A DNA stretch of 64,000 bases from the sequence record PP892525.1; one strand, written 5' to 3'. The translations under genes were made by a program, and so were the position numbers. Positions 4,167 to 43,583 of the stretch are shown one piece after another. This stretch comes from Escherichia phage vB_EcoS_I14. The notes under the pieces were generated by a model. The model was not told the origin of the DNA, did not search any database, and saw only the letters and a list, made by a program, of their open reading frames with translations. The number at the start of each line of letters is the position of its first letter. The first letter of the stretch is position 1.

Positions 4167-6726
4167 CGAGAATCCTTCTCACGTTATCCAGATCTTTACA
4201 TACAGCAATAAACTTATCATCCTTGTATTTGCTGTGATCTGGATGCTCTTTATCCATTGCAGCTAGTTTCTTATACTCGAACTCTGCATCAAGTAATACA
4301 CCCTTGACATAACGAGTATATTCATCATCATCAATACAAGCGATTGATGGGTGCTGCTTCTTCATCTTACCACAAGAGTAGTCACGAGAACCTCCAGCTT
4401 CAGAATCAGAATCAATACCAATCGGACAACCAGGAATACTGATACCACGGTCTTTCTGAATATTACGAATCAGGATTTCATTGTATTGGTCGATCAAATC
4501 CTCACGAACAATAGCAACTACGGAGTCGTGAACCAGCATAACAATCTTCATCTCTTGTTCTAGGCCAAGAGAAATGATCTCATTATCTGCATCTACAGCA
4601 CCTAAAAGGAGGCTATCAGAAGAAGCAGACTGAATGATTGCGTTAAATCCAGAACGGATTTCTTCACCTTGAACACCACGGTCTTCGGAGTGGATATTAT
4701 GCAGACGACGTTTACGACCAAAGTGACTATAGATAAACCCATGATTCTTGATCTGATCATGGCACTTATCAATCCAACGCTTAAGCTGCGGGAACTGACC
4801 GAAGTATGTCTCAATGTACTCTTTAGCATCTGCAACCGTACACTCTACAAACGGTTCGCCTGTCTTAGCAGCCTGTTCCAGAAGAGCTTCGTTAACAGAA
4901 TGAGCTACTTTAGCCGGGCCGGAACCATACAGAATACCAAAGGTGATTGCTTTAGCTGCTTGACGCAGAGCTGGGAATAACTTTTTAACATCACGAGGTT
5001 CGCATTGAAGCTTAAATACCATGTGTGCGATGTTAGAGTGGAAGTCAGGGTATTTATCAGGCTCATTTCTCATGTTGATAAATACTTGTTGCATATTTCT
5101 ATCACCAGATAGAACAGCAGCATAATAAACTTCCGCAGTTGTTAAGTCCCATGCGATTACACGATACCCGGTAGGAGCTACTACACAACCCTTGATAATA
5201 GATTCATCACGAGGTAACTGTTGCAGGTTCAGTTTACCAGAAGAACTCAGACGACCAGAAGTGGTCATGTGTTCGTGGAAGCCAGTACGAATGCAACCAT
5301 CAGCATCAATACTCAGAAGAATCTTCTCAACATAAGTAGAGATCAGCTTAGTCAGCTTACGAATCTCTAGTAGAGTCTTAGCAATTGGATGCTGCGTAGA
5401 CAATTCGTTCAGAGCCTCTGCATCTGTAGAGTCTGCTCCAGTATCCGTCAATTTACCTGTTGGAGTTAACCCAACATAATCAAACAGAAGAACACGTAGC
5501 TGCTTAACAGAGTTTGGGTTAAACGCTTCGTTCTGGTCTTTCTCTAGCTGAACGACTTCTGGATAAGTATACAGCTTCTCACGAGCTTTATTCAGATTAT
5601 GAGTTAACTGGTACTGAGCTTCTTTTAAACGATCAATAGAAATAGGTACACCACGATCCTCAACACGCTGGAGAAATACACAACCAGGCATTAGAACATC
5701 ATAATACAGACTGCAAAGTTTTTCATTCTTCTCAATTTTTGGTAAGAAGAAGTTGTGCAAACGTATGGTGGCATCGGTATCTTTTGCAGCGTAAGGCCAC
5801 ATAATATCAAACGGAATTAAATCATAGGTGAAATCTTCTTTCTTGATTTTATGTGCTTTGCAGTAATCCTCCTTGAACTTATCTAGCTCAAAGTCATAGT
5901 CACCCATATCGGTATACTTCATTGCTAGAGATTTCAAGCCATGAGTACCACGACGCTCATCTAGAACATAATGCTGCAACATTGTATCATGGAGCCTGCG
6001 TTCTTTATGTGCTTTATCAAAAGTAAGTCCCAGATGGTACTTATAAAAGTGCATATCGAACTTCAAGTTGTGAAAAACAATAGTGTGGTTTTCACTATCC
6101 AGAATTTTCTGGAGATAATATACTGCAACCTCTGTGAGACAATCAGAATCGATATATACACCCTGATACTCTTGGTGAGACATAGAAACACCAAGCAGAT
6201 AACCATCTCGACAGTATAGTGCTGAGGTTTCGGAGTCGAATGCGACAGGTCCGATAACCATATTATACACCATCTTGATATATTCTTCCGCCTCGTCAGG
6301 GTCAGTAATAGGACGGTAATCACCAGCTTTTGCAATCTTCTCACGACCATTGATAATATCGTGGATATTCTCTACTGTTGCATCAAAAACTGGTTTCATT
6401 TCAGGCTTAAAGTGTAACTGGGCTGGGCTGATACTCGCAATCCAGTTAGCATATCCATTATACTCTACACGTTTACCAGTATAATCCCCAATGCCTTTCT
6501 TTCCTGCAAAGTATAGGAAAGGTTCAGCACCTACCAGTATAACAAAATCATAATCATTCGGGTCAAATGGGTTTTCTGGTGTTCCAATAGTAATATGCTT
6601 TTTAAGCAAACGACCAGATAACTTCTCGTTACACATATGGAATACATCAACTTCCTCGCCGTATAGCTGGAAATGTTTATCATAACGAGTGTTATTTAGA
6701 GCTTTATCAACTACTGCGATTTTCAA
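4159..6726 (-). CDS. DNA polymerase, family A, with 3'-5' exonuclease domain
   Basis: 855 aa; exo motif FDSETSALY; pol motifs DLTTAEVYYAAVLSGD, RQAAKAITFGILYGSG, LVHDSVV; apparent TTG start 7 nt after AGGAGA. Confidence 0.95.
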   Translation of the reverse strand: MKIAVVDKALNNTRYDKHFQLYGEEVDVFHMCNEKLSGRLLKKHITIGTPENPFDPNDYDFVILVGAEPFLYFAGKKGIGDYTGKRVEYNGYANWIASISPAQLHFKPEMKPVFDATVENIHDIINGREKIAKAGDYRPITDPDEAEEYIKMVYNMVIGPVAFDSETSALYCRDGYLLGVSMSHQEYQGVYIDSDCLTEVAVYYLQKILDSENHTIVFHNLKFDMHFYKYHLGLTFDKAHKERRLHDTMLQHYVLDERRGTHGLKSLAMKYTDMGDYDFELDKFKEDYCKAHKIKKEDFTYDLIPFDIMWPYAAKDTDATIRLHNFFLPKIEKNEKLCSLYYDVLMPGCVFLQRVEDRGVPISIDRLKEAQYQLTHNLNKAREKLYTYPEVVQLEKDQNEAFNPNSVKQLRVLLFDYVGLTPTGKLTDTGADSTDAEALNELSTQHPIAKTLLEIRKLTKLISTYVEKILLSIDADGCIRTGFHEHMTTSGRLSSSGKLNLQQLPRDESIIKGCVVAPTGYRVIAWDLTTAEVYYAAVLSGDRNMQQVFINMRNEPDKYPDFHSNIAHMVFKLQCEPRDVKKLFPALRQAAKAITFGILYGSGPAKVAHSVNEALLEQAAKTGEPFVECTVADAKEYIETYFGQFPQLKRWIDKCHDQIKNHGFIYSHFGRKRRLHNIHSEDRGVQGEEIRSGFNAIIQSASSDSLLLGAVDADNEIISLGLEQEMKIVMLVHDSVVAIVREDLIDQYNEILIRNIQKDRGISIPGCPIGIDSDSEAGGSRDYSCGKMKKQHPSIACIDDDEYTRYVKGVLLDAEFEYKKLAAMDKEHPDHSKYKDDKFIAVCKDLDNVRRILGA

Positions 6727-30614: not shown

Positions 30615-30893
30615 ATGCGAATTTATAACTCAAATTCACTAGGATTTAAACCATTGAGAAAACGTGCACAATCACCTCGTCAAATAAGAAAGGCTAATAT
30701 TGGTGAGCCAGAAACACGTCTTCCACCTCCTCCAGAGCAACGTTTAGTTTATCTGGATGAAGAATTAGCTGAACGCGAAAGAAAAGCTCAGGAAGAGATT
30801 GAGCGTAAGAAAATGTGTACTGCTCCGGCGTATAATAAAGGAGCGTATCAATATGTCTCAGATGCTGAACAAGCTAAGATGGTTGGTAGATAA
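30615..30893 (+). CDS. hypothetical protein
   Basis: 92 aa ORF. Confidence 0.5.
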   Translation: MRIYNSNSLGFKPLRKRAQSPRQIRKANIGEPETRLPPPPEQRLVYLDEELAERERKAQEEIERKKMCTAPAYNKGAYQYVSDAEQAKMVGR

Positions 30894-30911
30894 TTTTTAA
30901 AAAAAATTCAT

Positions 30912-30940
30912 TTGCTAAACGCTTCAAATTCTCGTATAAT
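30912..30940 (+). promoter_or_regulatory. sigma70-type early promoter
   Basis: TTGCTA-17bp-TATAAT, then CATAAATTGATAAAC. Confidence 0.7.
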
Positions 30941-30978
30941 ATACTTCATAAATTGATAAACAAAAAGGAAAATAAATA

Positions 30979-31494
30979 ATGGCTAAGCAGAAAAACGCAA
31001 AAACTCAAGCAGCTCCGGCAGTTAAAACTTTCCCACAGACCGAGGCTAATCGCAAAGCTCGTCTGGAACGCCACCTGCGTAAGCATCCTACCGATGCTCA
31101 GGCTGCGCAAGCACTGAATAGTCCGGCTCCGATTCGTCAGAAGCCTAAAGCTAAAAATGCCACCCGTAAATCCTACAAAATGGTTATGTATGTAGAAAAT
31201 TACGGCCACAAATCTGTCTCAGTTTCCCTGAGCTTTAACGCTGGGGCTGAATTGTTCTCTCGTAATGGTATGTCCATGAAAGACTATGAGAAAGCAGTTA
31301 ACCAGAAGCGTAAACCAACAGCAGATGTATTACGTGATACTCGTGGACAGTTTGGTTCTGTTAAGCCAAATATCTTTGGCGTAGAGTATAGTAAAGATAA
31401 TGTTCGTGCTCTGTGTTACGGTGTAGGCATTAAGTTCACTGGTGATTCTGCTCGTAAATCTGCTAAACCAGCTCGCAAGCGTAAAGCGAAGTAA
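30979..31494 (+). CDS. hypothetical basic protein
   Basis: 171 aa, Lys/Arg-rich. Confidence 0.5.
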   Translation: MAKQKNAKTQAAPAVKTFPQTEANRKARLERHLRKHPTDAQAAQALNSPAPIRQKPKAKNATRKSYKMVMYVENYGHKSVSVSLSFNAGAELFSRNGMSMKDYEKAVNQKRKPTADVLRDTRGQFGSVKPNIFGVEYSKDNVRALCYGVGIKFTGDSARKSAKPARKRKAK

Positions 31495-31558
31495 TAGATA
31501 AATAGGGGCAGAAGCCCCTACAATCTACTAATTCTCTAACTAATCAAGGATATTTTTT

Positions 31559-31774
31559 ATGTTCTCTAAGAAACCACGTTCTGTTACTGAAATCGTTGCT
31601 TCCTTTACCACTATCACTGATGAGCTTCAAGCTCGTATTGAGGCTGATCAAAAAATTGCTGCGGATATTCAGAAACAGCAGGAAGAACTCGCTTTAAAGT
31701 TGGCTGAAACCAACAAGAGTGAAAAATCTGCCCAAACTATTATGGAAAATATCTTTAAACTGCTGGGCAAGTGA
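31559..31774 (+). CDS. hypothetical protein
   Basis: 71 aa ORF flanked by hairpins. Confidence 0.45.
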   Translation: MFSKKPRSVTEIVASFTTITDELQARIEADQKIAADIQKQQEELALKLAETNKSEKSAQTIMENIFKLLGK

Positions 31775-31783
31775 TTTAAATCA

Positions 31784-31808
31784 GGGGGCGAAAGCCCCTC
31801 TTATTTGG
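31784..31808 (+). terminator. intrinsic terminator
   Basis: AGGGGC-GAAA-GCCCCT hairpin followed by CTTATTT. Confidence 0.6.
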
Positions 31809-31815
31809 AGAAACT

Positions 31816-32052
31816 ATGCGTAATTTTGTAGCAAAGAATGATTTTAACCGTGCTAGCACTCATAAGTCCGCTAGAGATTATACACGACTTTCTAGTCATG
31901 AGGTAATGGATACCTGTTATGAAGAGCTGGAAGGTAGCTGGAATGAATGGCCCGGCCTCTCTATGGAAGAGAACTGGGATGTCAGTGAGGATATGCTTCC
32001 TGGTTTTAAAGACCCCAAGAAGTGGGAGTCTATTAAAGAGACAGCTCTTTAA
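31816..32052 (+). CDS. hypothetical protein
   Basis: 78 aa ORF. Confidence 0.4.
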   Translation: MRNFVAKNDFNRASTHKSARDYTRLSSHEVMDTCYEELEGSWNEWPGLSMEENWDVSEDMLPGFKDPKKWESIKETAL

Positions 32053-32080
32053 TAGTTTTCTACACAATAAAGGATAAGTT

Positions 32081-32782
32081 ATGAAAGTAAAACCATTTGG
32101 TATGCTAGATATTGAATCTCTAGGAACTCCAGGAGATTGTGGTACTACTCATATCGCAATGCCTTCTTTCGCTTTTGTGGCTATGCATGGAATTGATAAA
32201 GACCCTGATCTAGTATTTGTTACCTTAGATGTACAAGATCAACTTAATTCTGGTGCCAAAGTTACAGCATCTACTCTAGCATTCTGGATGGATCAGGCTA
32301 AACATAGCCCGTCTGCTATCCACATTATGGAAGCTATGAATGAGCGTAATCCAAAACTGATTGCCTTCCAAAATGGTAAACATCATTGCACTAATAAACT
32401 TGGCTCTAACCATGCTGCCTTCTCTATGGCTCAAAATATTATGGAGTTGGCTCTAGGTGAAAATGCTTTGTACTATGGCAATGGCCCAGAGTTTGATATG
32501 ACTATCTACTCTGCAAACACTTTCCATGCTGGAACCAATGAAGAAATAGTTCCGTGGAAATTCTGGAACTTGGGTAATGTTAGATCTCTTCGTAATCTCT
32601 GGATGCAAACTGGCTATAGTTATAAAGCTCTAGAAACCGAAGGTATTAGCTGGGCAATAGCTAAAATGGAGAAGATGGACACCATTCGTTATGGGATCTA
32701 TCCGGTTAAGCACGACCCAGCATTCGATGCCCTAGTTGAGAGCTATTGTGTTGCAGCTATGATCGAAAAAATGAAAATTTGA
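32081..32782 (+). CDS. DEDDh-type 3'-5' exonuclease (DnaQ/RNase T-like)
   Basis: 233 aa; Exo I MLDIESLG, Exo II YGNGPEFDM, Exo III HDPAFDA. Confidence 0.6.
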   Translation: MKVKPFGMLDIESLGTPGDCGTTHIAMPSFAFVAMHGIDKDPDLVFVTLDVQDQLNSGAKVTASTLAFWMDQAKHSPSAIHIMEAMNERNPKLIAFQNGKHHCTNKLGSNHAAFSMAQNIMELALGENALYYGNGPEFDMTIYSANTFHAGTNEEIVPWKFWNLGNVRSLRNLWMQTGYSYKALETEGISWAIAKMEKMDTIRYGIYPVKHDPAFDALVESYCVAAMIEKMKI

Positions 32783-32783
32783 T

Positions 32784-32812
32784 TTGCTTCCGGCTCCAAA
32801 ATTCTGTATAAT
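32784..32812 (+). promoter_or_regulatory. sigma70-type early promoter
   Basis: TTGCTT-17bp-TATAAT; -35 region overlaps the 3' end of CDS 32081-32782. Confidence 0.7.
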
Positions 32813-32852
32813 ATATTCATAAATTTGAGAAAACAATAAAAGGAAAACAAAT

Positions 32853-33035
32853 ATGCCAGTATCTAAAAATGTTCGTAAAAATGGTAAGAAAGCTACTCGT
32901 AATCTGGGTATCCGTCGTATGGCTGAACGTCAATCAGGTATCCAGAAAATCTTTGATCTGCTAAATCGTGCTAATCCTAAAATTGATAACAGTAACGATA
33001 CTGTTCTGCGCACCCTGCTGGCAATTGGTCTGTAA
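32853..33035 (+). CDS. hypothetical small basic protein
   Basis: 60 aa ORF. Confidence 0.4.
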   Translation: MPVSKNVRKNGKKATRNLGIRRMAERQSGIQKIFDLLNRANPKIDNSNDTVLRTLLAIGL

Positions 33036-33088
33036 TAGACCAAATTTAAACAAATTCAAATCTCAAACTTCATATAAGGAAGCAAATA

Positions 33089-33727
33089 ATGACTACTCGT
33101 ATCTCTAAAACTCGCGCTCTGGCAACTATCAAATCTCTGGAAGCTAAAATCCGTAAAGCTACTGAACAACAGCTTCTGATCGCTGTTGGTGAAGGTAAGG
33201 ATAAAAACCAGGTTGTAGTTGGCGCTGCAATCGAAGTAGATGCCCTGTCTACTCGTATTAAAACTGATTTCCAATCTCTGCTGGATATGATGTCTCAGCG
33301 TGATCGTATTAAATCTGCTCTGATTAAGAGCAATGCAGAAACAATCGTTGAGATTGGTTCTCGTAAGATGACTGTTGCGGAAGCAATTGAAGCTAAGCGT
33401 TCTATGGAGCTTAAAGCTCAGCTGCTGGCTAACATGCGTAAGCAGTTCCATGCCGCTACGGTTAAGTTTAATACGCAGAAAGCACAGTTTGATGCTAAAT
33501 ATGAGCGTTTGCAGGATAGCATGGCTACCCGCGATAAGAAAACTTCCGAAGATGAAGTTAAAATGCAGCTCAATCTGCTGGAACTCAAGAATACTCCATT
33601 CTTGATTGATCCGCTGGAACTGGAGAAGCTGATTAAGCAGCATGACGAGGAATACCAGGACTTTGCAACAAATGTTGACTTTGTTCTATCCGAGTCTAAC
33701 GCCTCTACCTTCATTGAAGTAGAGTAA
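33089..33727 (+). CDS. hypothetical protein, predicted coiled coil
   Basis: 212 aa ORF. Confidence 0.5.
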   Translation: MTTRISKTRALATIKSLEAKIRKATEQQLLIAVGEGKDKNQVVVGAAIEVDALSTRIKTDFQSLLDMMSQRDRIKSALIKSNAETIVEIGSRKMTVAEAIEAKRSMELKAQLLANMRKQFHAATVKFNTQKAQFDAKYERLQDSMATRDKKTSEDEVKMQLNLLELKNTPFLIDPLELEKLIKQHDEEYQDFATNVDFVLSESNASTFIEVE

Positions 33728-34110
33728 TAATTTAAAAGCTAGTAAATCGGTAGACGAAAGCCCAAGCATCTTACCTCGCAGCAGCGGTTGAAATACGAGG
33801 TTAAATAAGACCGCTGACCATACTATAAAGTATAATCTATTGGAGATTATGTTTATTACACCAGCCTTTTAAGCTGACACGTAAGAACAAAGCGTCGTTG
33901 ATATTACCGACACAACTTCAAAGATCAACATTTAAGTATGAAAGCTGAAAAGTTTAAAGAACTCAAACTTCTAAACTTCTAAAGCTAAAAGATGCAAAGT
34001 ATTCGTTGATGATTCAAACCCTAGATCAAAGGTACATGGCTCATAAGATATGGCCTGTGGCGCCTCTAGGCTGTTTATCGGTTTACTAGTTTCACAATTT
34101 AAAAATGTAT

Positions 34111-34139
34111 TTGCTAATTTACTAAGTTATCTGTATAAT
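34111..34139 (+). promoter_or_regulatory. sigma70-type early promoter
   Basis: TTGCTA-17bp-TATAAT, then TTAAATTGATGAAACGAGG. Confidence 0.7.
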
Positions 34140-34169
34140 ATATTTTTAAATTGATGAAACGAGGCTATT

Positions 34170-34487
34170 ATGACTTTTCATATTTTGATTGATGATGTGC
34201 GTAATCTTCACGGAATGGACATTATCATTCGAACCCCAGAAGCCGCTGTAGAGTTTCTGAATAAAACTGATACCACCGGCCATTTCGTTTATATGGATAA
34301 TGACTTGGCTGTAGATGGTATGGAAGGTTATCAAATTCTTCGTTTACTCTTAGAATTTGGGCAGAGACCAAAGAAAGTGGTACTAGTAACCTCGAACCCA
34401 GTAGCTAAGCAAAATATGCGTAATGATTTGCTTGACTTAGGGTATAAAGAAAATCCCAATCGTGTTGAATATGATTGGCAGGAGTAA
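34170..34487 (+). CDS. receiver (REC/CheY-like) domain protein, stand-alone
   Basis: 105 aa; ILIDD, FVYMDNDL, VVLVTSN and PVAK fit the DD-D-T-K receiver pattern. Confidence 0.45.
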   Translation: MTFHILIDDVRNLHGMDIIIRTPEAAVEFLNKTDTTGHFVYMDNDLAVDGMEGYQILRLLLEFGQRPKKVVLVTSNPVAKQNMRNDLLDLGYKENPNRVEYDWQE

Positions 34488-34492
34488 AAAGA

Positions 34493-34942
34493 ATGAAGGC
34501 AGCTTTGCTTTTAGTAGCTGCCCTTACCTTCAGCTTTAGTAGTCAGGCATCGCACGATGCAAAAGAAATAGATTGCATTGCTAAAAATATCTATTTCGAG
34601 AGTCGTGGTGAGGGCATAAAGGGAATGACGGCAATTGCACATGTTACTAAAAACCGTGTAAACTCCGGTAAATTCCCAGATTCCTACTGTAAAGTAGTAT
34701 ATCAGTCTAACCAGTTCTCTTGGGTATCTAAGAGACCAAAAGTTGATAAAACTGATGAGGCTTGGCAAACCGCTAAGAATTTAGCTAGAGTGATATACTA
34801 CGTTGATTTACCACAAGATCCTACACATGGAGCACTATACTTCCATAGTGGTAAAGATAAACCTTACTGGACAAAGAAATTTAAGAAAACAACTAAGATT
34901 AAGGGACATACGTTTTATAAACCTGTTGTCACTAAAACTTAA
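34493..34942 (+). CDS. secreted cell-wall hydrolase (SleB/Hydrolase_2-like)
   Basis: Signal peptide MKAALLLVAALTFSFSSQA; motifs IYFESRGE, AIAHVTKNRV, CKVVYQSNQFSW; the track ORF starts at 34475. Confidence 0.65.
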   Translation: MKAALLLVAALTFSFSSQASHDAKEIDCIAKNIYFESRGEGIKGMTAIAHVTKNRVNSGKFPDSYCKVVYQSNQFSWVSKRPKVDKTDEAWQTAKNLARVIYYVDLPQDPTHGALYFHSGKDKPYWTKKFKKTTKIKGHTFYKPVVTKT

Positions 34943-34950
34943 AAATTTAC

Positions 34951-34979
34951 TTGCTTAAATACTTAAATTTCTGTATAAT
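34951..34979 (+). promoter_or_regulatory. sigma70-type early promoter
   Basis: TTGCTT-17bp-TATAAT, then CATAAATTAATGAGAGG. Confidence 0.7.
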
Positions 34980-35010
34980 ACTTCCATAAATTAATGAGAG
35001 GAAGCGAAAT

Positions 35011-35181
35011 ATGAAATCAGTTGTAATTATTGGTGTTAACACTCGCGGTATTCGTACTACGAAAACTGTTAAAACTTCTAACGTTGCTGAGATCACTACG
35101 AACCCTAAAAAGTTTGATTTCGCCAAAGTCTCAGCAGTTATGACAGAACAATCTTTTAACCAAGCATTGGGGATGAAATAA
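35011..35181 (+). CDS. hypothetical small protein
   Basis: 56 codons from ATG 35011; not in the ORF track. Confidence 0.35.
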   Translation: MKSVVIIGVNTRGIRTTKTVKTSNVAEITTNPKKFDFAKVSAVMTEQSFNQALGMK

Positions 35182-35615
35182 TGGGTACGAATATGATTCG
35201 TGTGCTGCGAGAATTAATTGAAAAAGCTCGCAAACACGGTGATACTGTGTCAGTCAAGCACCTTAGTACGATTTTAGGTGACTTACAACGAATTGATAAA
35301 GATTGCGTATCTAGACTAGAGTTTACTAACTGGATTAAATCACAGTTCAAAGCAATTGAGAGTACAATGACTTCTGCTGCAAAAGCAAATATCGAGTATA
35401 CTCCAGATGCTGAATATCTCGACTTGTTAGCAGGTCTAGAGTATGAATATGCTCTAGAGCAGTTAACTGAAGTTCAGATTCGTGAGTATTTTGCAGAACT
35501 GGTTAAATTAAACCCAGGTATTACCAAAGCTCTATTAATGAAAACTATTAAGGCAGAATTTCCTGGACGTTATGACGGTAAAACAACTGCTTTGATTGCT
35601 AGTGAATTTTTCTAA
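35181..35615 (+). CDS. hypothetical protein
   Basis: 144 aa ORF. Confidence 0.5.
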   Translation: MGTNMIRVLRELIEKARKHGDTVSVKHLSTILGDLQRIDKDCVSRLEFTNWIKSQFKAIESTMTSAAKANIEYTPDAEYLDLLAGLEYEYALEQLTEVQIREYFAELVKLNPGITKALLMKTIKAEFPGRYDGKTTALIASEFF

Positions 35616-35623
35616 AAATTCAC

Positions 35624-35652
35624 TTGCTAAATGCTTATAAATTCTGTATAAT
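35624..35652 (+). promoter_or_regulatory. sigma70-type promoter at the start of the tRNA/ncRNA region
   Basis: TTGCTA-17bp-TATAAT; no ORF follows for about 750 bp. Confidence 0.7.
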
Positions 35653-35718
35653 ATATTCATAAATTAGAGAGTAATTTCTATCTAATTTATAAATAGTGGG
35701 GTGTGGAAATCACTTATG

Positions 35719-35790
35719 TAGTAACACTGCCGTCCTAGTATAATTGGTATTATCAAGCCGTAACTGGTGGAAGATGTAGGTTCGAATCCT
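35719..35790 (+). tRNA. tRNA-like element, anticodon arm not foldable
   Basis: T-arm GTAGG-TTCGAAT-CCTAC and acceptor GCCGTCC/GGTCGGT with one mismatch; no convincing D or anticodon stem; no CCA. Confidence 0.3.
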
Positions 35791-36293
35791 ACGGTCGGTA
35801 AGAACTGGATAACTGATGCTTTTAACGTAAAAGCTTCCGAGGTTAGTTGCGCACTGCCTAAACCACGCGGTAGTTGGTTCCAGACTAACCAACCAGTCTG
35901 CTGAATAGTTTTATTACGATTTAACTATGTCCAGGCTAAAGAAGAACTTTAGAAGGTATTTCTAGGATAGTGAAGTTCTTTCTCCATATCGGAGTAGTTT
36001 TTCAAGCTATCCACAAAGTGGGAAATGCTGACATGAGAGATGTCACTAATGGTGCACAATAGCACAGGTAATTCGCGATAACTCCTGTTGAGTAGCAGCA
36101 AAAGGCGGGAAGTCATGACCCCAAGCCTAACCGAGTCCTCAATATACCGCAGGACATAACCACTAAGTCACCCTGACTTAAACTGGAAAATAATAGACGT
36201 TACTGTATTTTGTCTTGAAATACTTAATGAGTGAGACTTATGATTCTCCCGGTATCGTCTGTATTTTTAAGAGTTTTTACGAGAGTTCTTAAA

Positions 36294-36368
36294 AATACTT
36301 AAACGGGGTGTAGTCTAATGGAGAGGCAGGAGTCTTCTAAATTCCTTTATGCAGGTTCGAATCCTGTC
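36294..36368 (+). tRNA. tRNA-Arg(TCT), tentative
   Basis: Acceptor CGGGGTG/CACCTCG; anticodon stem GGAGT/ATTCC, loop CTTCTAA; T-arm GCAGG-TTCGAAT-CCTGT; CCA encoded; short D-arm. Confidence 0.55.
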
Positions 36369-36412
36369 ACCTCGGCCAATTTTATTAACTGTAACTAAAA
36401 CAAAGGAAACAT

Positions 36413-37360
36413 ATGTTTAATACTAAAAATATGAAAGAATTGACTTCTGAGCAGAAAGTAATTCGTACTATTAAACGTTGGGGTATTGGTGCTATAGTTG
36501 GTTTAGCAGGTTTAATCCTAGCTTTTAATTCGTATACCATTGTTTCTGATGGTACGGTTAAAACCCAAACATTCCTGGGTAAAGTAGACCCTAATCCAGT
36601 ATTACCTGGTTTCCATCTTGTAAACCCGTTTGCATCTTTCGATACTTTTAGTACAAAAGATATTGCTGTAAAATTAGATAAACTTCAGGTTCCTAGCCAG
36701 GATAAGTTTAAATCCACTGTTGACCTGACTGTTATGTTGCAGTTTGATGGTTCTAAGGCACCAATTAACCGTATTAACGCAGGTACTCAGGATCAAGCGT
36801 TAGACAAGTATGTAACTGAAAAATTACTGTCTACTATTCGTGAGTTTGGTAAGTCTGTACCTAAAGCACAAGATTTGTTTGATGCTAAAATTCAGGCTCA
36901 ATTGCAAACCGCAATTCAACAAGAAGTTGAAGAGTATGCACGCCCATATGGTTACACAGTTAAGCAGGTATTCCTTCAGGATATTACTCTACCACCAGTA
37001 ATCATGGAACAGGTACAGAATACCAAAGTTCGTGAAGAGCAAGTTAATGCTGCGAAAGCTGAATTGGCTCGTGTTGAACAGGAAGCACAGCAAAAAGTTA
37101 AACAAGCAGAAGCAGATCGTGAAGCTCGCAACAACCAAGCTATTGCTAATGAACGTGACGCAGATGCTAAACTGTACGCAGCTAAGAAAGAAGCTGAAGC
37201 TAACGCCGCACTGCAACGTACCATTACTCCTGAGATGATTCGTTGGAAACAACTGGAAGTTGAGATGATTCGTGCTCAGAAATATCAAGGTGGTGTACCG
37301 CAGACTGTGGTTGGCACTGGCTATGATGGCCAAATGATTATGGATATGCGTAATAAATAA
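36413..37360 (+). CDS. SPFH/band-7 (prohibitin/HflKC-like) membrane protein
   Basis: 315 aa; N-terminal TM segment, SPFH-like core, Ala/Glu/Gln-rich coiled coil. Confidence 0.7.
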   Translation: MFNTKNMKELTSEQKVIRTIKRWGIGAIVGLAGLILAFNSYTIVSDGTVKTQTFLGKVDPNPVLPGFHLVNPFASFDTFSTKDIAVKLDKLQVPSQDKFKSTVDLTVMLQFDGSKAPINRINAGTQDQALDKYVTEKLLSTIREFGKSVPKAQDLFDAKIQAQLQTAIQQEVEEYARPYGYTVKQVFLQDITLPPVIMEQVQNTKVREEQVNAAKAELARVEQEAQQKVKQAEADREARNNQAIANERDADAKLYAAKKEAEANAALQRTITPEMIRWKQLEVEMIRAQKYQGGVPQTVVGTGYDGQMIMDMRNK

Positions 37361-37383
37361 TACCCGCACGTAACATCTGAAGT

Positions 37384-37419
37384 GAGCCCTGCGTTCCCTG
37401 GAGAGCGCAGGGCTTTTCT
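37384..37419 (+). terminator. intrinsic terminator after the SPFH gene
   Basis: GAGCCCTGCG...CGCAGGGCT hairpin followed by TTTT. Confidence 0.7.
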
Positions 37420-37456
37420 ATATAATGTATTTGTAAATCTAACTAGGAGATCAAAT

Positions 37457-37975
37457 ATGAATGTTGATGAGCTAATACAGCACCTCTTATCTAGGGGATT
37501 TGATACAGATAAATATCATTGCTGGTTAAGTCCGGAAGGATGGCTAACAGTCCCGTTGTATGACTTCTCTGGGATGTTGAGAGGCTATCAGACTTATAAT
37601 CCTTCTGCTCCCAAAAGGCAGGGTAAGTGCCCATTTGAAGCTAAATATTTTACCCATTCTACTACACAGTGTGTATGGGGGCTAGAAACTCTCAATGGAG
37701 ATGAAAAAGTAGTATTGATTGCTGAATCTGTATTTAAGGCAGTTGCGTTACATAACGCTGGTTATCCCGCCCTAGCAATGTTGGGTTCTTCTCCGGGAAA
37801 AGCATTATTAAAGCAACTGAAATTACTACCTTTTAAATTGATAGCTATTGGTGACAATGATCCCGATGGTGAAAAATTTGCTAGAAAATTAAACGGCTTT
37901 GTTTCTCCCGTAGATGTGGATGAGATGTCTACCGAAAACTTGAAAAATTTTCTTGCTATGAAGCTAAATTTCTAA
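37457..37975 (+). CDS. hypothetical protein with Toprim-like motifs
   Basis: ATG 37457 after AGGAGA; VVLIAESVF and IAIGDNDPDGEKFA; the track ORF starts at 37382 inside the terminator. Confidence 0.45.
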   Translation: MNVDELIQHLLSRGFDTDKYHCWLSPEGWLTVPLYDFSGMLRGYQTYNPSAPKRQGKCPFEAKYFTHSTTQCVWGLETLNGDEKVVLIAESVFKAVALHNAGYPALAMLGSSPGKALLKQLKLLPFKLIAIGDNDPDGEKFARKLNGFVSPVDVDEMSTENLKNFLAMKLNF

Positions 37976-37981
37976 TATAAT
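37953..37981 (+). promoter_or_regulatory. sigma70-type promoter upstream of tRNA-Ser
   Basis: TTGCTA-17bp-TATAAT; -35 lies in the 3' end of CDS 37457-37975. Confidence 0.65.
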
Positions 37982-37994
37982 ATATCTTATAAAT

Positions 37995-38085
37995 TCGGAA
38001 GAATAGCATAACGGTATTGCAGCAGATTGCTAATCTGTCGGTTTGAAATATAGCCTTGTGGGTTCGATTCCCACTTCTTCCGCCA
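37995..38085 (+). tRNA. tRNA-Ser(GCT), type II
   Basis: Acceptor GGAAGAA/TTCTTCC; anticodon loop TTGCTAA; long variable arm; T-loop GTTCGATTC; CCA encoded. Confidence 0.7.
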
Positions 38086-38091
38086 GATTTT

Positions 38092-38169
38092 GGTTCTCAA
38101 GCTCATATGGTATGAGCACCCGGCTCATAACCGGAAGGTACGTAGGTTCGAATCCTCGGGGAGCCACCA
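38092..38169 (+). tRNA. tRNA with CAT anticodon (Met or Ile2), tentative
   Basis: Acceptor GGTTCTC/GGGAGCC; D-stem GCTC/GAGC; anticodon loop CTCATAA; T-stem has two mismatches; CCA encoded. Confidence 0.5.
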
Positions 38170-38385
38170 ATTAAATAGAGGTCACAAATGGATCTATATA
38201 TATAGTTTATGTTGTGTTTATCCAAGATAGAGAATACCCGGATGAATATAAAAAAGGATATAGGTTAGCCAGAGCTACTTCTGAAGCCCAAGCTATGGAT
38301 AAAGTGGCAGATTATATGATTACAGTAGAAAACGTACACTATATCGACTACCTTGAAGCCTCAAAAGTAATTGACTAAACTACAT

Positions 38386-38462
38386 GGGGGTGTAATCGAA
38401 TTGGCATAGGTACTGGACTTAAAATTCAGGTTTTGTGGGTTCGAATCCCACCACCCCTACCA
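38386..38462 (+). tRNA. tRNA, anticodon tentatively TAA (Leu)
   Basis: Acceptor GGGGGTG/CACCCCT; T-arm GTGGG-TTCGAAT-CCCAC; CCA encoded; D-arm unclear. Confidence 0.5.
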
Positions 38463-38477
38463 AATTAAGGAAATAAG

Positions 38478-38645
38478 ATGTATAGACATCCACCTCCGCC
38501 AACACGTCGTTCTAGAGAAGTTATCCTCATGGAATTAACTAAAAACTTCAAGGCAACTCTTGAAGATAGAGATCTAGGCACGGATGAAGACATTGATTTT
38601 ATTTGTAGACTACTAAAGATGAAACTGGAGAAACAACATGGCTAA
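38478..38645 (+). CDS. hypothetical small protein
   Basis: 55 codons from ATG 38478; not in the ORF track. Confidence 0.3.
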   Translation: MYRHPPPPTRRSREVILMELTKNFKATLEDRDLGTDEDIDFICRLLKMKLEKQHG

Positions 38646-40990: not shown

Positions 40991-41073
40991 GGGTCGTTAG
41001 CCAAGCGGTTTGGCGGCGGATTGTTAATCCGTGTCGAAAGACAACGTAGGTTCGAATCCTACACGGCCCGCCA
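40991..41073 (+). tRNA. tRNA-Asn(GTT) with extended variable region, tentative
   Basis: Acceptor GGGTCGT/ACGGCCC; D-stem GCCA/TGGC; anticodon stem GCGGA/TCCGT, loop TTGTTAA; CCA encoded. Confidence 0.6.
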
Positions 41074-41175
41074 AATTCTGTGTAGAGTTAAGTAAACCGG
41101 TAGCCAACCAGCTATCATTGCTGACATCGAATTCAGCCACAGATACCATTTTCATTAATAACTGAGGAAACAAGC

Positions 41176-41361
41176 ATGTCCAAGAATGTAATTGCACAGT
41201 TAGAAGTTCATCGTGATAACACAGCTAATAACATTAAGTGCCGACAAAAAGATATTGAAGCTCGAAAGGCTGATCTTTTAATGAGTATTCGAGAGCTTAA
41301 TGTACGAAAAGAGTTTCTTAAAGAACTTAATGCAGCTATTGAAAAACTCAAAGCTGAGTAA
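41176..41361 (+). CDS. hypothetical protein
   Basis: 61 aa ORF. Confidence 0.4.
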   Translation: MSKNVIAQLEVHRDNTANNIKCRQKDIEARKADLLMSIRELNVRKEFLKELNAAIEKLKAE

Positions 41362-41370
41362 ATGAATTAT

Positions 41371-41447
41371 GCGACCGGGGCTGGCTTGGTAATGGTACTC
41401 CCCTGTCACGGGAGGGAATGTGGGTTCAAATCCCATCGGTCGCGCCA
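41371..41447 (+). tRNA. tRNA-Asp(GTC)
   Basis: Perfect acceptor GCGACCG/CGGTCGC; anticodon stem CTCCC/GGGAG, loop CTGTCAC; T-loop TTCAAAT; CCA encoded. Confidence 0.75.
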
Positions 41448-41473
41448 AACTAAACTAGCACGAGAAATATGAT

Positions 41474-41821
41474 ATGGTTAATGCTAAAGAAGAATTGTTA
41501 CTTGCCCTAAAGAATACTAATTCTGAAGTTAAGTGTATTAAGATAGAATTCGGTTATTATGGGGACAAAGAAGTTTGGGTATTACCCATAGGTTATACAG
41601 AAAAAGATATTGAAGATTTTCTAAATAATCTAGACTTTAAATATGATTCTGGTTTCGGTGGACAATTGCTTTATGGTAACGTATGGTTTACTGATGGAAC
41701 TTGGTTAGAACGTGGTGAATACGACGGTTCTGAATGGTGGGAATATAAGGCTACACCAGCAATCCCAGAAGAATGCCGAACAATTAATGGTGAAGTAGAT
41801 CGTACTTTACTATTAAATTAA
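41474..41821 (+). CDS. hypothetical protein
   Basis: 115 aa ORF. Confidence 0.5.
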   Translation: MVNAKEELLLALKNTNSEVKCIKIEFGYYGDKEVWVLPIGYTEKDIEDFLNNLDFKYDSGFGGQLLYGNVWFTDGTWLERGEYDGSEWWEYKATPAIPEECRTINGEVDRTLLLN

Positions 41822-42213
41822 CAAAATTTCAGTGCAGAACACGGAGCTAGCAATTCGGAAGTGCTGACTCATGATAAGCTGCCTATGTACTTGCGAAGCG
41901 GTCGTGTCCAAGACTCGGACTCTTGCACTGAAAACAATCAAACATTCTAGCGTGGTTGATGGGGAAACCAGCTTGGCTAGGGCAGAAGCTCGTTCGATTC
42001 GAGTGAAAGAATGGTTCTCGTAAGTCCGCACAAGTGATAGCAGGTTCGAGTCCTGTCTAGAATGACACTATAAAGTTTACTTATTATGTAGGTTCCGATA
42101 GATCGGCGGGTCTATTCTGGCATTTAAGAGAAGTCTCGCAAACTTTTTTGTCAGCCGTGGGGTTGGTAGCCTCCAGGTGGCCTACACAATAAGTAAATTT
42201 ATTAAAAATTCAT

Positions 42214-42242
42214 TTGCTATTCTGCTTTATTATCTGTATAAT
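42214..42242 (+). promoter_or_regulatory. sigma70-type early promoter
   Basis: TTGCTA-17bp-TATAAT, then TATAAAGTGAAGAGAAGG. Confidence 0.7.
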
Positions 42243-42274
42243 ATATTTTATAAAGTGAAGAGAAGGAAAGCAAA

Positions 42275-42433
42275 ATGAAACACAAGATAGCTCAAGTCTT
42301 TATGGCATTATGGTGTATGCCAATAGCTATAACAGCATTTAATCTAGATACTTTTACTATAGAAGAAAAATATATCGGATTAGTTAGCGGCTTTAGTATG
42401 CTGGGCTTATCTTTGCTGTGGTTAAAGAAATAA
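42275..42433 (+). CDS. hypothetical small membrane protein
   Basis: 52 codons after promoter 42214-42242; hydrophobic; not in the ORF track. Confidence 0.35.
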   Translation: MKHKIAQVFMALWCMPIAITAFNLDTFTIEEKYIGLVSGFSMLGLSLLWLKK

Positions 42434-42437
42434 TATT

Positions 42438-42515
42438 CTCCGTGTAGCTCAGTTTGGCCAGAGCGTTTCGTCTGGAGCGATAGGGTCGGGGGTTCAAATC
42501 CTCCCACGGAGACCA
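42438..42515 (+). tRNA. tRNA-Pro(TGG), tentative
   Basis: Acceptor CTCCGTG/CACGGAG; D-stem GCTC/GAGC; anticodon loop TCTGGAG; T-arm GGGGG-TTCAAAT-CCTCC; CCA encoded. Confidence 0.55.
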
Positions 42516-42521
42516 AATAAT

Positions 42522-42599
42522 TGCGGGTTAGATCTCTGGTAGAGATCGCTAGTCTCATAAGCTAGAAAGAGGTAGGTTCGATTCCTGCACCCGCTTCCA
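42522..42599 (+). tRNA. tRNA with CAT anticodon and unpaired 1-72 (initiator-like Met), tentative
   Basis: Acceptor TGCGGGT/ACCCGCT with U-U at position 1-72; D-stem GATC/GATC; anticodon stem CTAGT/GCTAG, loop CTCATAA; CCA encoded. Confidence 0.55.
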
Positions 42600-42619
42600 T
42601 TTTAATAGAGGATTTCGAA

Positions 42620-42787
42620 ATGAAAGTATTTCGATTAGTAGTAAGTGACAAACGCTTAGGTAAGAATACATCAAAATCCTTACTTGCTCATTATGGTAGA
42701 AATTGGGATGAAGTAATGGCAGAGTTTAGTACTAATCACCCTTACTTGAAAGTTCACTCTATTAAAGAAGTATACAATGGTTACTAA
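42620..42787 (+). CDS. hypothetical small protein
   Basis: 55 codons between tRNA genes; not in the ORF track. Confidence 0.3.
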   Translation: MKVFRLVVSDKRLGKNTSKSLLAHYGRNWDEVMAEFSTNHPYLKVHSIKEVYNGY

Positions 42788-43345: not shown

Positions 43346-43583
43346 ATTTATATAAATTGATGAGGATTTCTCCTCATCATAGTTCACTAAGGTATTAGCT
43401 CGACCTAGGACTGGCTGCCAAAAAGCACGATCCCTACGATTCGGGAGAAGTTCTAGATTAGTCCACTAGATTCAGCGGCAACTGAATAGTGTATTGGGTT
43501 TGCGAGATGACGCGGTTCCTTCCGCTCGAAGCGAAGGTGCTGTAGTTACGCCGAGCTAATAGCCTTAGTAAACTAAAGAATTT

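What the first reader, a model, noticed from the sequence alone, without database searches (positions are those of the whole stretch)
41822..42213. ORF-free 390-bp segment with tRNA-like T-arms but no complete cloverleaf
The segment contains GTTCGATTCGAG (about 41992-42003) and CAGGTTCGAGTCCTG (42040-42054). A possible 68-nt tRNA-like fold (41995-42064) has a 3-bp D-stem with a 5-nt loop and no clear anticodon stem. It lies between a protein gene and a promoter, inside the tRNA cluster, and may encode a non-canonical small RNA or decayed tRNA genes.
Basis: seen in the sequence. Interest (0 to 1): 0.55.

Follow-up and report, generated by a model that had tools for sequence, protein, structure and literature searches.

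The report
Known phage T5 tRNA-like stable RNAs
The "empty" 390-bp stretch holds the genes for two small structured RNAs, RNA2 and RNAIV, that are already annotated in phage T5, plus one conserved unannotated element; the RNAs are real and under selection, but nobody knows what they do.

Summary
The window is a T5-like phage (Demerecviridae) and the segment lies in its tRNA cluster. It is 97% identical to T5, where the same space is annotated as rna2 ("tRNA-like stable RNA with unknown functions") and rnaIV ("stable RNA with unknown functions"). BF23 carries the same annotation.

- **RNA2 (41943-42067)** is a complete tRNA frame with acceptor stem, D arm, anticodon stem and T arm. Its anticodon loop is replaced by a 55-nt insert. 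The insert holds a second T-arm-like hairpin and an invariant CUCGUAAKUCCGCA.
- **RNAIV (42086-42188)** is a four-way-junction RNA inside a 13-bp flanking stem, with conserved GGCG and CUCGCAA loops.
- **Support.** Compensatory changes across several phage genera support both folds. Some relatives encode a proper N-CCA 3' end on RNA2.
Both T-arm motifs are real: one is RNA2's T arm, the other the insert hairpin. The proposed 68-nt fold is not conserved.
- **Unit A (41827-41933)** is a third, unannotated module. It is highly conserved but has no covariation support.
- **Databases.** ARAGORN and Rfam recognise none of the three.

Function is unknown. The region is dispensable in a viable T5 deletion mutant. 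This is a rediscovery of known RNAs with an open functional question.

The parts
41474..41821 (+). Upstream flanking gene, 115 aa. Homologue of T5.067, function unknown.
   Evidence: ORF list. Matches PHROG 3972, unknown function, E 7e-42. The T5 annotation places T5.067 at the same position.
41827..41933 (+). 'Unit A': a conserved module not annotated in T5 or BF23. It has an 11-bp terminal stem (41827-41837 with 41923-41933), a T-arm-like hairpin GUCC-AAGACUC-GGAC (41906-41920) and a self-complementary hexamer TCATGA (41869-41874). Whether it is an RNA is not shown.
   Evidence: No substitutions against T5 between 41827 and 41933. Found in 219 phage records, all at least 92.8% identical. RNAalifold predicts a four-way junction, but 0 of 36 pairs show a double change. 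Folding z-score is only -1.15. Model R3 finds no homologue in Myunavirus, Sugarlandvirus, Vibrio phage pVp-1, or in the Epseptimavirus loci that BLAST had already shown to lack unit A. No Rfam match.
41943..42067 (+). RNA2 homologue (T5 rna2/T5s06), 125 nt. A tRNA frame whose anticodon loop is replaced by a structured insert.
- Acceptor stem: 41944-41950 with 42057-42063, plus C41943:G42064.
- D arm: 41953-41970.
- Anticodon stem: 41971-41975 with 42031-42035.
- T arm: 42040-42056.
- 3' tail: ACA, 42065-42067.
   Evidence: Coordinates transferred from NC_005859 through alignment A1. RNAalifold finds 25 pairs, 16 with compensatory changes. On 17 sequences 95.4% of cells pair, 16 pairs show double changes, and 0 of 500 shuffles reach this. 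Model R1 finds one copy per genome at 123-164 bits, while real tRNAs score 12-36 bits.
41976..42030 (+). The 55-nt insert that replaces the anticodon loop.
- Helix GGGC (41980-41983) with GUCC (42024-42027).
- Second T-arm-like hairpin GCUCG-UUCGAUU-CGAGU (41988-42004).
- Conserved AAUGG (42010-42014).
- CUCGUAAKUCCGCA (42017-42030), invariant except position K.
   Evidence: The hairpin stem exists in two fully paired versions, GCUCG/CGAGU and UACGG/CCGUA. Four of its five pairs differ on both sides. Position 41983 pairs with 42024 as C-G in T5-likes and as U-A in one Epseptimavirus group, but is U/U in the other lineages. CUCGUAA-N-UCCGCA is invariant in all 15 aligned homologues. The fold of the remaining single-stranded part is unresolved, because those positions never vary.
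42073..42200 (+). RNAIV homologue (T5 rnaIV/T5s05; mature RNA by the T5 annotation is 42086-42188) with its flanking stem.
- Flanking 13-bp stem: 42073-42085 with 42188-42200.
- Terminal stem: 42088-42096 with 42176-42185.
- Hairpin 1: 42098-42115, loop GGCG.
- Long arm: 42117-42154, with the 7-nt loop CUCGCAA at 42135-42141.
- T-arm-like hairpin: 42159-42173.
   Evidence: Coordinates from T5. On 15 sequences 99.3% of cells pair and 9 pairs show double changes. Model R2 also finds homologues in Pectobacterium phages My1 and DU_PP_V (44.9 and 43.8 bits) with the GGCG and CUCGCA loop sequences kept. On 19 sequences 98.4% of cells pair, 30 of 46 pairs show double changes, and 0 of 500 shuffles reach this. 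That alignment was fitted to the model.
42214..42242 (+). Promoter, equivalent to T5 P13a: -35 TTGCTA, 17-nt spacer, -10 TATAAT. It drives the 52-aa ORF and tRNA-Pro/Met downstream, not the RNAs described here.
   Evidence: Best sigma-70-like site in 41000-42700, 10 of 12 matches. T5 promoter P13a maps to 42195-42269.
42275..42433 (+). Downstream flanking gene, 52 aa. Homologue of T5.066; the T5 record notes two transmembrane domains.
   Evidence: ORF list. Matches PHROG 18174, E 2e-35. T5 annotation.

Best explanation
The segment carries the genes for the T5-type stable RNAs RNA2 and RNAIV, preceded by a third conserved module (unit A) of unproven nature.

Identity is shown. Each RNA has a defined fold under purifying selection. 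RNA2 is a tRNA-derived molecule that keeps acceptor stem, D arm, anticodon stem and T arm. Its anticodon loop is replaced by a 55-nt structured insert, so it cannot decode. RNAIV is a four-way-junction RNA that displays two conserved loops, GGCG and CUCGCAA.

Biogenesis is inferred, at about 0.7. No promoter or terminator lies inside the segment. The modules sit 5-10 nt apart, like neighbouring tRNA genes, so they are probably transcribed with the upstream ORF and tRNAs and cut out by the host tRNA-processing machinery. For RNA2 that would mean RNase P at the 5' end and 3' trimming or CCA repair. For RNAIV it would mean a double-strand-specific cut, probably RNase III, in the roughly 22-bp helix formed by its flanks and terminal stem.

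Function is inferred, at about 0.3. They would be accessory, non-decoding tRNA mimics that bind or titrate a factor recognising tRNA shape. That factor could be a host tRNA-targeting defence nuclease or a tRNA-processing or modification enzyme. The shared CUCGYAA motif would be the presented recognition element.
For: Identity:
- The interval is 97% identical to T5, where rna2 and rnaIV are annotated at exactly this position. BF23 carries the same annotation.

Structure under selection:
- RNA2: 16 of 25 and 16 of 32 pairs with compensatory changes, 95.4% of cells paired, 0 of 500 shuffles as good. The insert hairpin exists in two fully paired versions.
- RNAIV: 30 of 46 pairs with double changes, 98.4% paired.

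tRNA-like nature:
- The RNA2 model gives low positive scores to genuine tRNAs.
- Sugarlandvirus, Erwinia phage KEY and Salmonella phage UTK0010 encode N-CCA directly after the acceptor stem.
- RNA2 occupies a tRNA slot. It lies about 6 nt upstream of tRNA-Gly in Epseptimavirus and My1, and directly after tRNA-Leu in Sugarlandvirus.

Co-transcription:
- The only strong promoter lies downstream at 42214, and no + strand terminator was found.

RNAIV processing stem:
- The flanking 13-bp stem extends the terminal stem into a helix of about 22 bp and covaries in My1.

Accessory role:
- T5Mos, with deletion 30661-38625, is viable. If those coordinates follow NC_005859 (not stated in the passages read), the deletion covers rna2 and rnaIV at 32838-33083, and they are dispensable on laboratory E. 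coli (PMC11464382; coordinates).
- T5 tRNAs from the same cluster are documented counter-defence factors (PMC11464382; PMC10644984).

Distribution:
- RNA2 matches occur in about 460 phage records, almost all named as phages of enterobacterial hosts; the eleven records fetched are all Demerecviridae. The signature pattern gave 0 matches in 185,579 bacterial and archaeal genomes, and RNA2 was not found in the tRNA region of Vibrio phage pVp-1.
Against: - No expression, end-mapping or binding data were accessible. 'Stable RNA' rests on the GenBank annotation alone.
- T5-like RNA2 ends in G-ACA rather than N-CCA.
- The acceptor stems and discriminator bases differ completely between lineages. This argues against one conserved aminoacylation identity and leaves the recognised partner undefined.
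- The compensatory changes come from only four or five sequence lineages, so few independent events lie behind the counts. Alignments A5 and A9 were fitted to the models.
- Single-sequence folding energies are unremarkable, with z-scores of -0.85 to -1.67.
- The decoy function is analogy only.
- CUCGYAA is short. In RNA2 it cannot be shown to sit in a loop.
- Unit A has no covariation support at all.
Confidence: 0.75

Rival explanations
1. The structures act only in cis, as processing or stability punctuation. RNase P and RNase III would cut at them to separate and stabilise the upstream mRNA and the neighbouring tRNAs. The excised RNAs would be by-products with no function of their own.
For: The modules are packed at tRNA-like spacing inside a polycistronic unit with no promoter or terminator of their own. 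RNAIV is enclosed in a long helix typical of a processing stem. Module content varies between lineages: unit A comes and goes, a tRNA-Gly sits between RNA2 and RNAIV in some, and RNAIV was not found in Sugarlandvirus.
Against: A cutting signal needs only a stem or an acceptor/T module. Here loops and single-stranded motifs are invariant across subfamilies: CUCGUAAKUCCGCA, AAUGG and the GAUGGGGA D loop in RNA2, and GGCG and CUCGCAA in RNAIV. The T5 and BF23 records call them stable RNAs, meaning they accumulate.
Confidence: 0.12
2. They are trans-acting antisense regulators. The conserved CUCGYAA-containing loops would pair with a phage or host RNA.
For: The RNAIV loop UCUCGCAAAC is perfectly complementary over 10 nt to GUUUGCGAGA in the RNA2H homologue (window 43498-43507). 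RNA2's UCUCGUAA could pair with the same site through 8 bp including one G-U. Both motifs are the most conserved unpaired stretches of their RNAs.
Against: A 10-nt match among eight small RNAs is expected by chance at roughly 0.4 (my estimate; BLAST E 0.07-0.1). The RNA2H motif is absent downstream of RNA2 in the two Epseptimavirus loci with several kb of downstream sequence (L038, L041), although they keep RNAIV and RNA2. No covariation between the two sites can be tested, because both are invariant.
Confidence: 0.06
3. They are decaying tRNA genes, pseudogenes left by duplication, with no present function.
For: RNA2 has a recognisable tRNA frame, and its 3' end in T5-likes has drifted from CCA to ACA. 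tRNA finders reject it. T5-like tRNA clusters contain several other odd tRNA-like sequences.
Against: Pairs are maintained by double substitutions in every helix. The insert carries invariant motifs across Markadamsvirinae, Mccorquodalevirinae and Sugarlandvirus. There is one copy per genome in every homologue-bearing locus searched with the model and BLAST matches in about 460 phage records.
Confidence: 0.04
4. The segment encodes small proteins, as many GenBank records annotate it ('hypothetical protein', and 'Rz-like spanin' in one record).
For: Mechanical ORFs of 50 aa (41871-42023, +) and 72 aa (41813-42031, -) exist. Several deposited T5-like genomes list CDS features under this DNA.
Against: The 50- and 72-aa ORFs have no Pfam or PHROG match. 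Every reading frame across RNA2 has at least one stop in the window and in Erwinia phage KEY. The substitution pattern is pair-compensating, not codon-like. The curated T5 and BF23 records annotate RNAs here, not CDS.
Confidence: 0.03

Closest known systems
Bacteriophage T5 rna2 (T5s06) and rnaIV (T5s05), and the same features in the phage BF23 tRNA-region record
   Same: Same position between T5.067 and promoter P13a, and 97% identity over the aligned interval (window 41780-42290). They are annotated as a 125-nt 'tRNA-like stable RNA' and a 103-nt 'stable RNA' of unknown function. These are orthologues.
   Different: Only a few substitutions. The window has U3-A70 where T5 has U3-G70 in the acceptor stem. 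The records give no structure, no family and no function. The 107-nt unit A upstream is not annotated in either record.
[quoted passage not shown]
   Same: They are small non-tRNA RNA genes embedded among phage tRNA genes (PMC2330249). From my own knowledge, they are co-processed with the tRNAs and their function is still unknown.
   Different: Different phage family. Sequence and structure were not compared here.
Canonical tRNA (Rfam RF00005; ARAGORN)
   Same: RNA2 has an acceptor stem of 7-8 bp, a D arm with a G-rich loop, a 5-bp anticodon stem, a 4-nt variable region and a 5-bp T stem with a UUCGAGU loop. Some relatives encode N-CCA.
   Different: The 7-nt anticodon loop is replaced by 55 nt. 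Position 8 is C, not U. The D stem is 5 bp. RF00005 scores only 16.6 bits against a threshold of 29, and ARAGORN is silent.
tmRNA tRNA-like domain
   Same: Acceptor stem and T arm are retained while the anticodon arm is replaced by a large insert, giving a non-decoding tRNA mimic.
   Different: RNA2 is far smaller than typical bacterial tmRNAs (my knowledge). ARAGORN detects no tmRNA or tag reading frame, and no tmRNA family appears in Rfam at E up to 10. No G3:U70 pair: position 3:70 is U-A, U-G or C-G. RNA2 also has a real D stem.
YrlA, the bacterial and phage Y-RNA-like tRNA mimics that bind Ro/Rsr (from my own knowledge)
   Same: A non-coding RNA of about 100-130 nt containing a tRNA-like T arm and D arm.
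   Different: In YrlA the 5' and 3' ends close the Ro-binding stem and the acceptor-like stem is capped. In RNA2 the ends form the acceptor stem. No Rfam Y-RNA or YrlA match at E up to 10.

Membership tests
T5 RNA2 / RNAIV stable RNAs (GenBank misc_RNA T5s06, T5s05) | Orthologous position between the T5.067 homologue and promoter P13a, with high sequence identity | tested here: met
   97% mean column identity over the 511-base aligned interval (window 41780-42290). The annotated ends map to 41943-42067 and 42086-42188. BF23 has the same layout.
T5 RNA2 / RNAIV stable RNAs (GenBank misc_RNA T5s06, T5s05) | Accumulates as a discrete stable RNA in infected cells | not testable with these tools
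   This rests only on the wording of the GenBank records. No primary paper was retrievable.
Canonical tRNA (RF00005) | Cloverleaf with acceptor, D, anticodon and T stems | tested here: met
   All four stems are present and covary in RNA2.
Canonical tRNA (RF00005) | Seven-nucleotide anticodon loop that presents an anticodon | tested here: not met
   The loop is replaced by 55 nt (41976-42030) in all 37 homologues aligned or found.
Canonical tRNA (RF00005) | Reaches the family gathering score or is called by a tRNA finder | tested here: not met
   16.6 bits against 29 for a partial, non-conserved register. No ARAGORN call.
Canonical tRNA (RF00005) | 3'-terminal N73-CCA | tested here: inconclusive
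   Encoded in Sugarlandvirus (UCCA), Erwinia phage KEY (ACCA) and UTK0010 (GCCA). It reads GACA, GACC or GACU in the window, T5, My1 and Epseptimavirus. Post-transcriptional addition cannot be tested here.
tmRNA | tRNA-like domain with a G3:U70 alanine identity pair, pseudoknots and a tag reading frame | tested here: not met
   ARAGORN finds no tmRNA. No Rfam tmRNA match. The 3:70 pair is U-A, U-G or C-G.
tRNA gene interrupted by a group I intron | A self-splicing intron of about 200 nt or more (size from my knowledge) in the anticodon loop, matching an intron model | tested here: not met
   The insert is 55 nt and no intron family matches at E up to 10. No normal anticodon loop can be restored by removing it.
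Y RNA / YrlA | The 5' and 3' ends form the Ro-binding stem, and the tRNA-like module is internal | tested here: not met
   The ends form the acceptor stem. No Rfam match.

The most novel reading that the evidence does not exclude
RNA2 and RNAIV would be two members of a set of phage-encoded, non-decoding tRNA mimics that also includes the other odd tRNA-like RNAs of Demerecviridae tRNA clusters. They would present a shared anticodon-loop-like CUCGYAA motif and act as decoys or inhibitors of a host factor that recognises tRNA, such as an anticodon nuclease or other tRNA-directed defence. That would be an RNA-based counter-defence working alongside the phage's nuclease-resistant tRNAs. Unit A would be a third, undescribed member.
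Probability: 0.15. Interest if true: 0.7.

Novelty: already known. Interest (0 to 1): 0.3.

Why it matters
As a discovery it adds little, because the reference records of T5 and BF23 already annotate both RNAs.

It still marks an open question. T5-like phages keep several tRNA-shaped RNAs that cannot decode. RNA2 is conserved in about 460 sequenced phage records from several genera. The tRNA-cluster region that appears to contain them is dispensable in the laboratory, and the neighbouring tRNAs are now known to defeat tRNA-cleaving defence systems.

None of these RNAs has an Rfam family, and tRNA finders miss them. Many deposited genomes therefore annotate spurious 'hypothetical proteins' over them.

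The covariation-supported folds and covariance models made here give a concrete basis for correct annotation and for designing loop and stem mutants.

Tried and rejected
- **Rfam.** Gathering threshold on the whole window, and E up to 10 on the whole segment and on each module. The only results were chance-level hits (pan, sR48, MIR6135, cow-rumen-2) and a sub-threshold tRNA match.
Rejected because the 5' strand of the matching Rfam tRNA register is not complementary to the acceptor 3' strand in the Klebsiella-phage homologues.
- **Wider relatives of RNA2.** Signature patterns found only genome-sized Demerecviridae contigs in IMG/VR, nothing in 185,579 bacterial and archaeal genomes, and 11 metagenome contigs of the same types. 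The tRNA region of Vibrio phage pVp-1 has no RNA2 or RNAIV.
- **Paralogy among T5 stable RNAs.** No significant similarity between RNA2, RNAIV, unit A and RNAI, RNAIII, RNA1, RNA2H or RNA3. The RNA2 model does not pick up RNA1.
- **Which tRNA RNA2 derives from.** The pairwise alignment of the frame to the window's tRNAs was uninformative. The model scores slightly favour tRNA-Lys, tRNA-Arg and tRNA-Gln, but weakly.
- **Unit A.** No covariation and no distant homologues, so its RNA nature remains unproven.
- **Alternative hairpin presenting CUCGUAA** (UGG with CCG). It cannot be told apart from the GGG/UCC pairing because all those positions are invariant. The C-G to U-A change at 41983/42024 slightly favours GGGC/GUCC.
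- **Literature.** No accessible paper describes the function, ends or structure of T5 RNA2 or RNAIV.
- **Coding potential of the internal ORFs.** No family hits.

Full report
**Where the window comes from.** The tRNA-cluster DNA around the finding matches 550 phage records, almost all Salmonella, Escherichia and Klebsiella phages. The best hit is Salmonella phage vB_Si_CECAV_FGS009 at 98.8%. ARAGORN finds 24 tRNA genes and Rfam also 24, all on the + strand between 35.7 and 47 kb. The window is therefore a T5-like phage (Demerecviridae), and the finding lies inside its tRNA cluster.

**Checking the observation.**
- GTTCGATTCGAG is at 41992-42003, and CAGGTTCGAGTCCTG is at 42041-42055, one base off the stated position.
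- The T-loop signature GTTCRAWTC occurs 15 times, all on the + strand, against 2.3 expected. Fourteen hits are in tRNA genes and one is the 41992 site.
- The segment has tRNA-like G+C (0.43-0.50) between AT-rich flanks.
- It lies between a 115-aa ORF and the only strong promoter-like site nearby, at 42214-42242.
- Short mechanical ORFs of 29-72 aa overlap it. The 50- and 72-aa ORFs match no protein family.
- No tRNA finder or Rfam family calls anything here.

**It is already annotated in T5.** In the T5 reference genome the space between T5.067 and promoter P13a carries two misc_RNA features:
- rna2 (T5s06, 125 nt), "tRNA-like stable RNA with unknown functions";
- rnaIV (T5s05, 103 nt), "stable RNA with unknown functions".

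The window and T5 are 97% identical across this interval. The annotated ends map to 41943-42067 for RNA2 and 42086-42188 for RNAIV. The BF23 tRNA-region record has the same two features, with a tRNA-Gly between them. Neither record annotates the 120 nt between the ORF and RNA2.

**RNA2 is a tRNA frame with its anticodon loop replaced.** The single-sequence fold pairs the two ends into an 8-bp stem. It also gives a D-like arm, a long branched central arm and a T arm.

Homologues were collected from Tequintavirus, Epseptimavirus, Sugarlandvirus (Klebsiella), Myunavirus (Pectobacterium My1, DU_PP_V) and Erwinia phage KEY.
- On 15 of them RNAalifold recovers acceptor, D, anticodon and T stems: 25 pairs, 16 with compensatory changes. 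The acceptor stem, for example, reads AUUCUAG/CUAGAAU, UACGGGG/UCCCGUA or AGACAAU/AUUGUCU.
- On 17 sequences aligned to a covariance model, 95.4% of cells pair against 28-40% when partners are slid. Sixteen pairs show double changes, and 0 of 500 shuffles reach this.
- Between the two strands of the anticodon stem lie 55 nt (41976-42030) instead of a 7-nt loop.

The insert contains a short helix, GGGC with GUCC. Its last pair is C-G in T5-likes and U-A in one Epseptimavirus group. That hairpin's stem exists in two fully paired versions, GCUCG/CGAGU and UACGG/CCGUA, with four of five pairs changed on both sides.

Other points on RNA2:
- Sugarlandvirus, Erwinia phage KEY and UTK0010 encode N-CCA directly after the acceptor stem. 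T5-likes read GAC followed by a variable base.
- In Epseptimavirus and My1 a tRNA-Gly starts about 6 nt after RNA2. In Sugarlandvirus RNA2 follows tRNA-Leu directly. It therefore occupies a tRNA slot at normal tRNA-tRNA spacing.
- The RNA2 model finds one copy per genome at 123-164 bits and scores real tRNAs at only 12-36 bits.
That pairing is not conserved.

**RNAIV is a four-way-junction RNA inside a long stem.** The predicted fold has these parts:
- a terminal stem;
- a 7-bp hairpin with a GGCG loop;
- a long arm ending in the 7-nt loop CUCGCAA;
- a short T-arm-like hairpin with a 7-nt loop.

The flanks (42073-42085 and 42188-42200) add 13 bp, giving a helix of about 22 bp. The ends annotated in T5 fall inside this helix, offset by one to two nucleotides. 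That suits a double-strand-specific cut such as RNase III, though this is inference.

On 15 Tequintavirus and Epseptimavirus sequences 99.3% of cells pair and 9 pairs show double changes. A covariance model then finds weaker but significant homologues in My1 and DU_PP_V (44.9 and 43.8 bits). In these the GGCG and CUCGCA loop sequences are kept while every helix changes, including the flanking stem in My1. On 19 sequences 98.4% of cells pair, 30 of 46 pairs show double changes, and 0 of 500 shuffles reach this.

Three caveats apply. Alignments A5 and A9 were fitted to the models. Only four or five sequence lineages contribute, so few independent events lie behind the counts. Single-sequence z-scores are unremarkable.

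**Unit A (41827-41933).** This module has no substitutions against T5. It is at least 92.8% identical in 219 records. It is present in Tequintavirus and in some Epseptimavirus such as TrudiGerster and SB9. It has an 11-bp terminal stem and a predicted four-way junction, but no pair shows a double change. No distant homologue was found. It may be a third RNA, but that is not shown.

**Layout and expression.** The three modules fill about 360 of the 392 nt and sit 5-10 nt apart. There is no promoter or + strand terminator among them. They must therefore be transcribed with the upstream ORF and tRNAs. Co-processing by the tRNA machinery is the natural inference, not a demonstrated fact.

**Distribution and dispensability.**
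- RNA2 matches occur in about 460 phage records, almost all named as phages of enterobacterial hosts. Every record fetched is Demerecviridae.
- Its signature occurs only in Demerecviridae-sized viral contigs, in no bacterial or archaeal genome, and in 11 metagenome contigs.
- It was not found in the tRNA region of Vibrio phage pVp-1.
- A viable T5 variant, T5Mos, carries deletion 30661-38625. If those coordinates follow NC_005859, which the passages I read do not state, the deletion covers rna2 and rnaIV and they are non-essential on laboratory E. coli (PMC11464382).
- The same paper shows that a T5 tRNA from this cluster neutralises the PARIS system. The BF23 paper summarises similar findings for retron Eco7 (PMC10644984).

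**Function.** I found no paper that addresses it. The acceptor stems and discriminator bases are not conserved. A fixed aminoacylation identity is therefore unlikely, and RNA2 cannot decode.

My preferred reading, at about 0.3, is a non-decoding tRNA mimic that occupies or titrates a tRNA-recognising factor. The conserved unpaired motifs would be the recognition surface. Both RNAs carry CUCGYAA, which has the pattern of an anticodon loop (pyrimidine, U, three bases, A, A). This is analogy only.

The alternatives are cis-only processing punctuation, antisense regulation, pseudogenes and small proteins. They are weighed in the rivals section. The invariant loops and the compensatory changes argue against the first, third and fourth of these.

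**Verdict.** The feature is already known by annotation, although it is absent from Rfam and often mis-annotated as CDS. What this analysis adds is covariation-supported secondary structures for RNA2 and RNAIV, the N-CCA ends in relatives, the shared motif, and the unannotated unit A.

Noticed in passing
window 41827-41933: A 107-nt module between the 115-aa ORF and RNA2 that neither the T5 nor the BF23 record annotates. It has no substitutions against T5, is at least 92.8% identical in 219 phage records, and has an 11-bp terminal stem and a predicted four-way junction. No compensatory change supports the fold, and no distant homologue was found.
   Followed up: yes
window 41869-41874; L033 (TrudiGerster) equivalent: Unit A contains the self-complementary hexamer TCATGA. 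In phage TrudiGerster three substitutions turn the site into another self-complementary hexamer, CGCGCG. This is what a loop-loop dimerisation site would look like, but it rests on a single variant.
   Followed up: partly
window 42133-42142 versus 43498-43507: The conserved RNAIV loop UCUCGCAAAC is perfectly complementary over 10 nt to GUUUGCGAGA in the homologue of T5 RNA2H. RNA2's UCUCGUAA could pair with the same site. The RNA2H motif is present in every Tequintavirus locus that reaches far enough, but not in the two Epseptimavirus loci with several kb downstream of RNA2 (L038, L041). Chance is quite possible.
   Followed up: partly
window 41076-41148: An exact copy of T5 rna3 ('putative tRNA-like RNA', 73 nt) lies directly after tRNA-Asn. 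It has a terminal stem, ends in ACCA and folds with a z-score of -3.0. ARAGORN and Rfam do not call it.
   Followed up: partly
window 38092-38166 and 35729-35800: Rfam calls two tRNAs that ARAGORN misses. The first (40.3 bits) sits where T5 has tRNA-Ile2(CAU). The second (35.5 bits) lies upstream of tRNA-Arg, in the region T5 annotates as the 719-nt 'RNAX'.
   Followed up: no
L002 (My1) 6218-6295; L033 (TrudiGerster) 818-903: Another unannotated cloverleaf-like RNA ending in ACCA. It has acceptor stem GGGGUUU/AAACUCC, a 7-bp arm with a T-loop-like UUGAAUC loop in the anticodon position, and an 11-nt loop in the T-arm position. ARAGORN does not call it. In My1 the fold has a z-score of -2.1.
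   Followed up: partly
L001 (T5) 2285-2645 and 3809-3980: All the other T5 'stable RNAs' (RNAIII, RNAI, RNA1, RNA2H) also pair their 5' and 3' ends into a terminal stem. RNAI ends in GCCA. By eye, RNA1 looks like a long-variable-arm tRNA frame with an enlarged anticodon arm, the same design principle as RNA2.
   Followed up: partly
L029 (S133) 1013-1125 and equivalents in L027, L031, L032: Epseptimavirus genomes carry an extra conserved stretch of about 110 nt between tRNA-Gly(GCC) and RNAIV that T5 lacks. Its predicted fold is no better than shuffled sequence (z +0.46).
   Followed up: partly
GenBank records matching window 41822-42275: Many deposited T5-like genomes annotate one to three 'hypothetical protein' CDS, and in one case an 'Rz-like spanin', over RNA2, RNAIV or unit A. 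These are probably gene-caller artefacts on structured RNA genes.
   Followed up: partly
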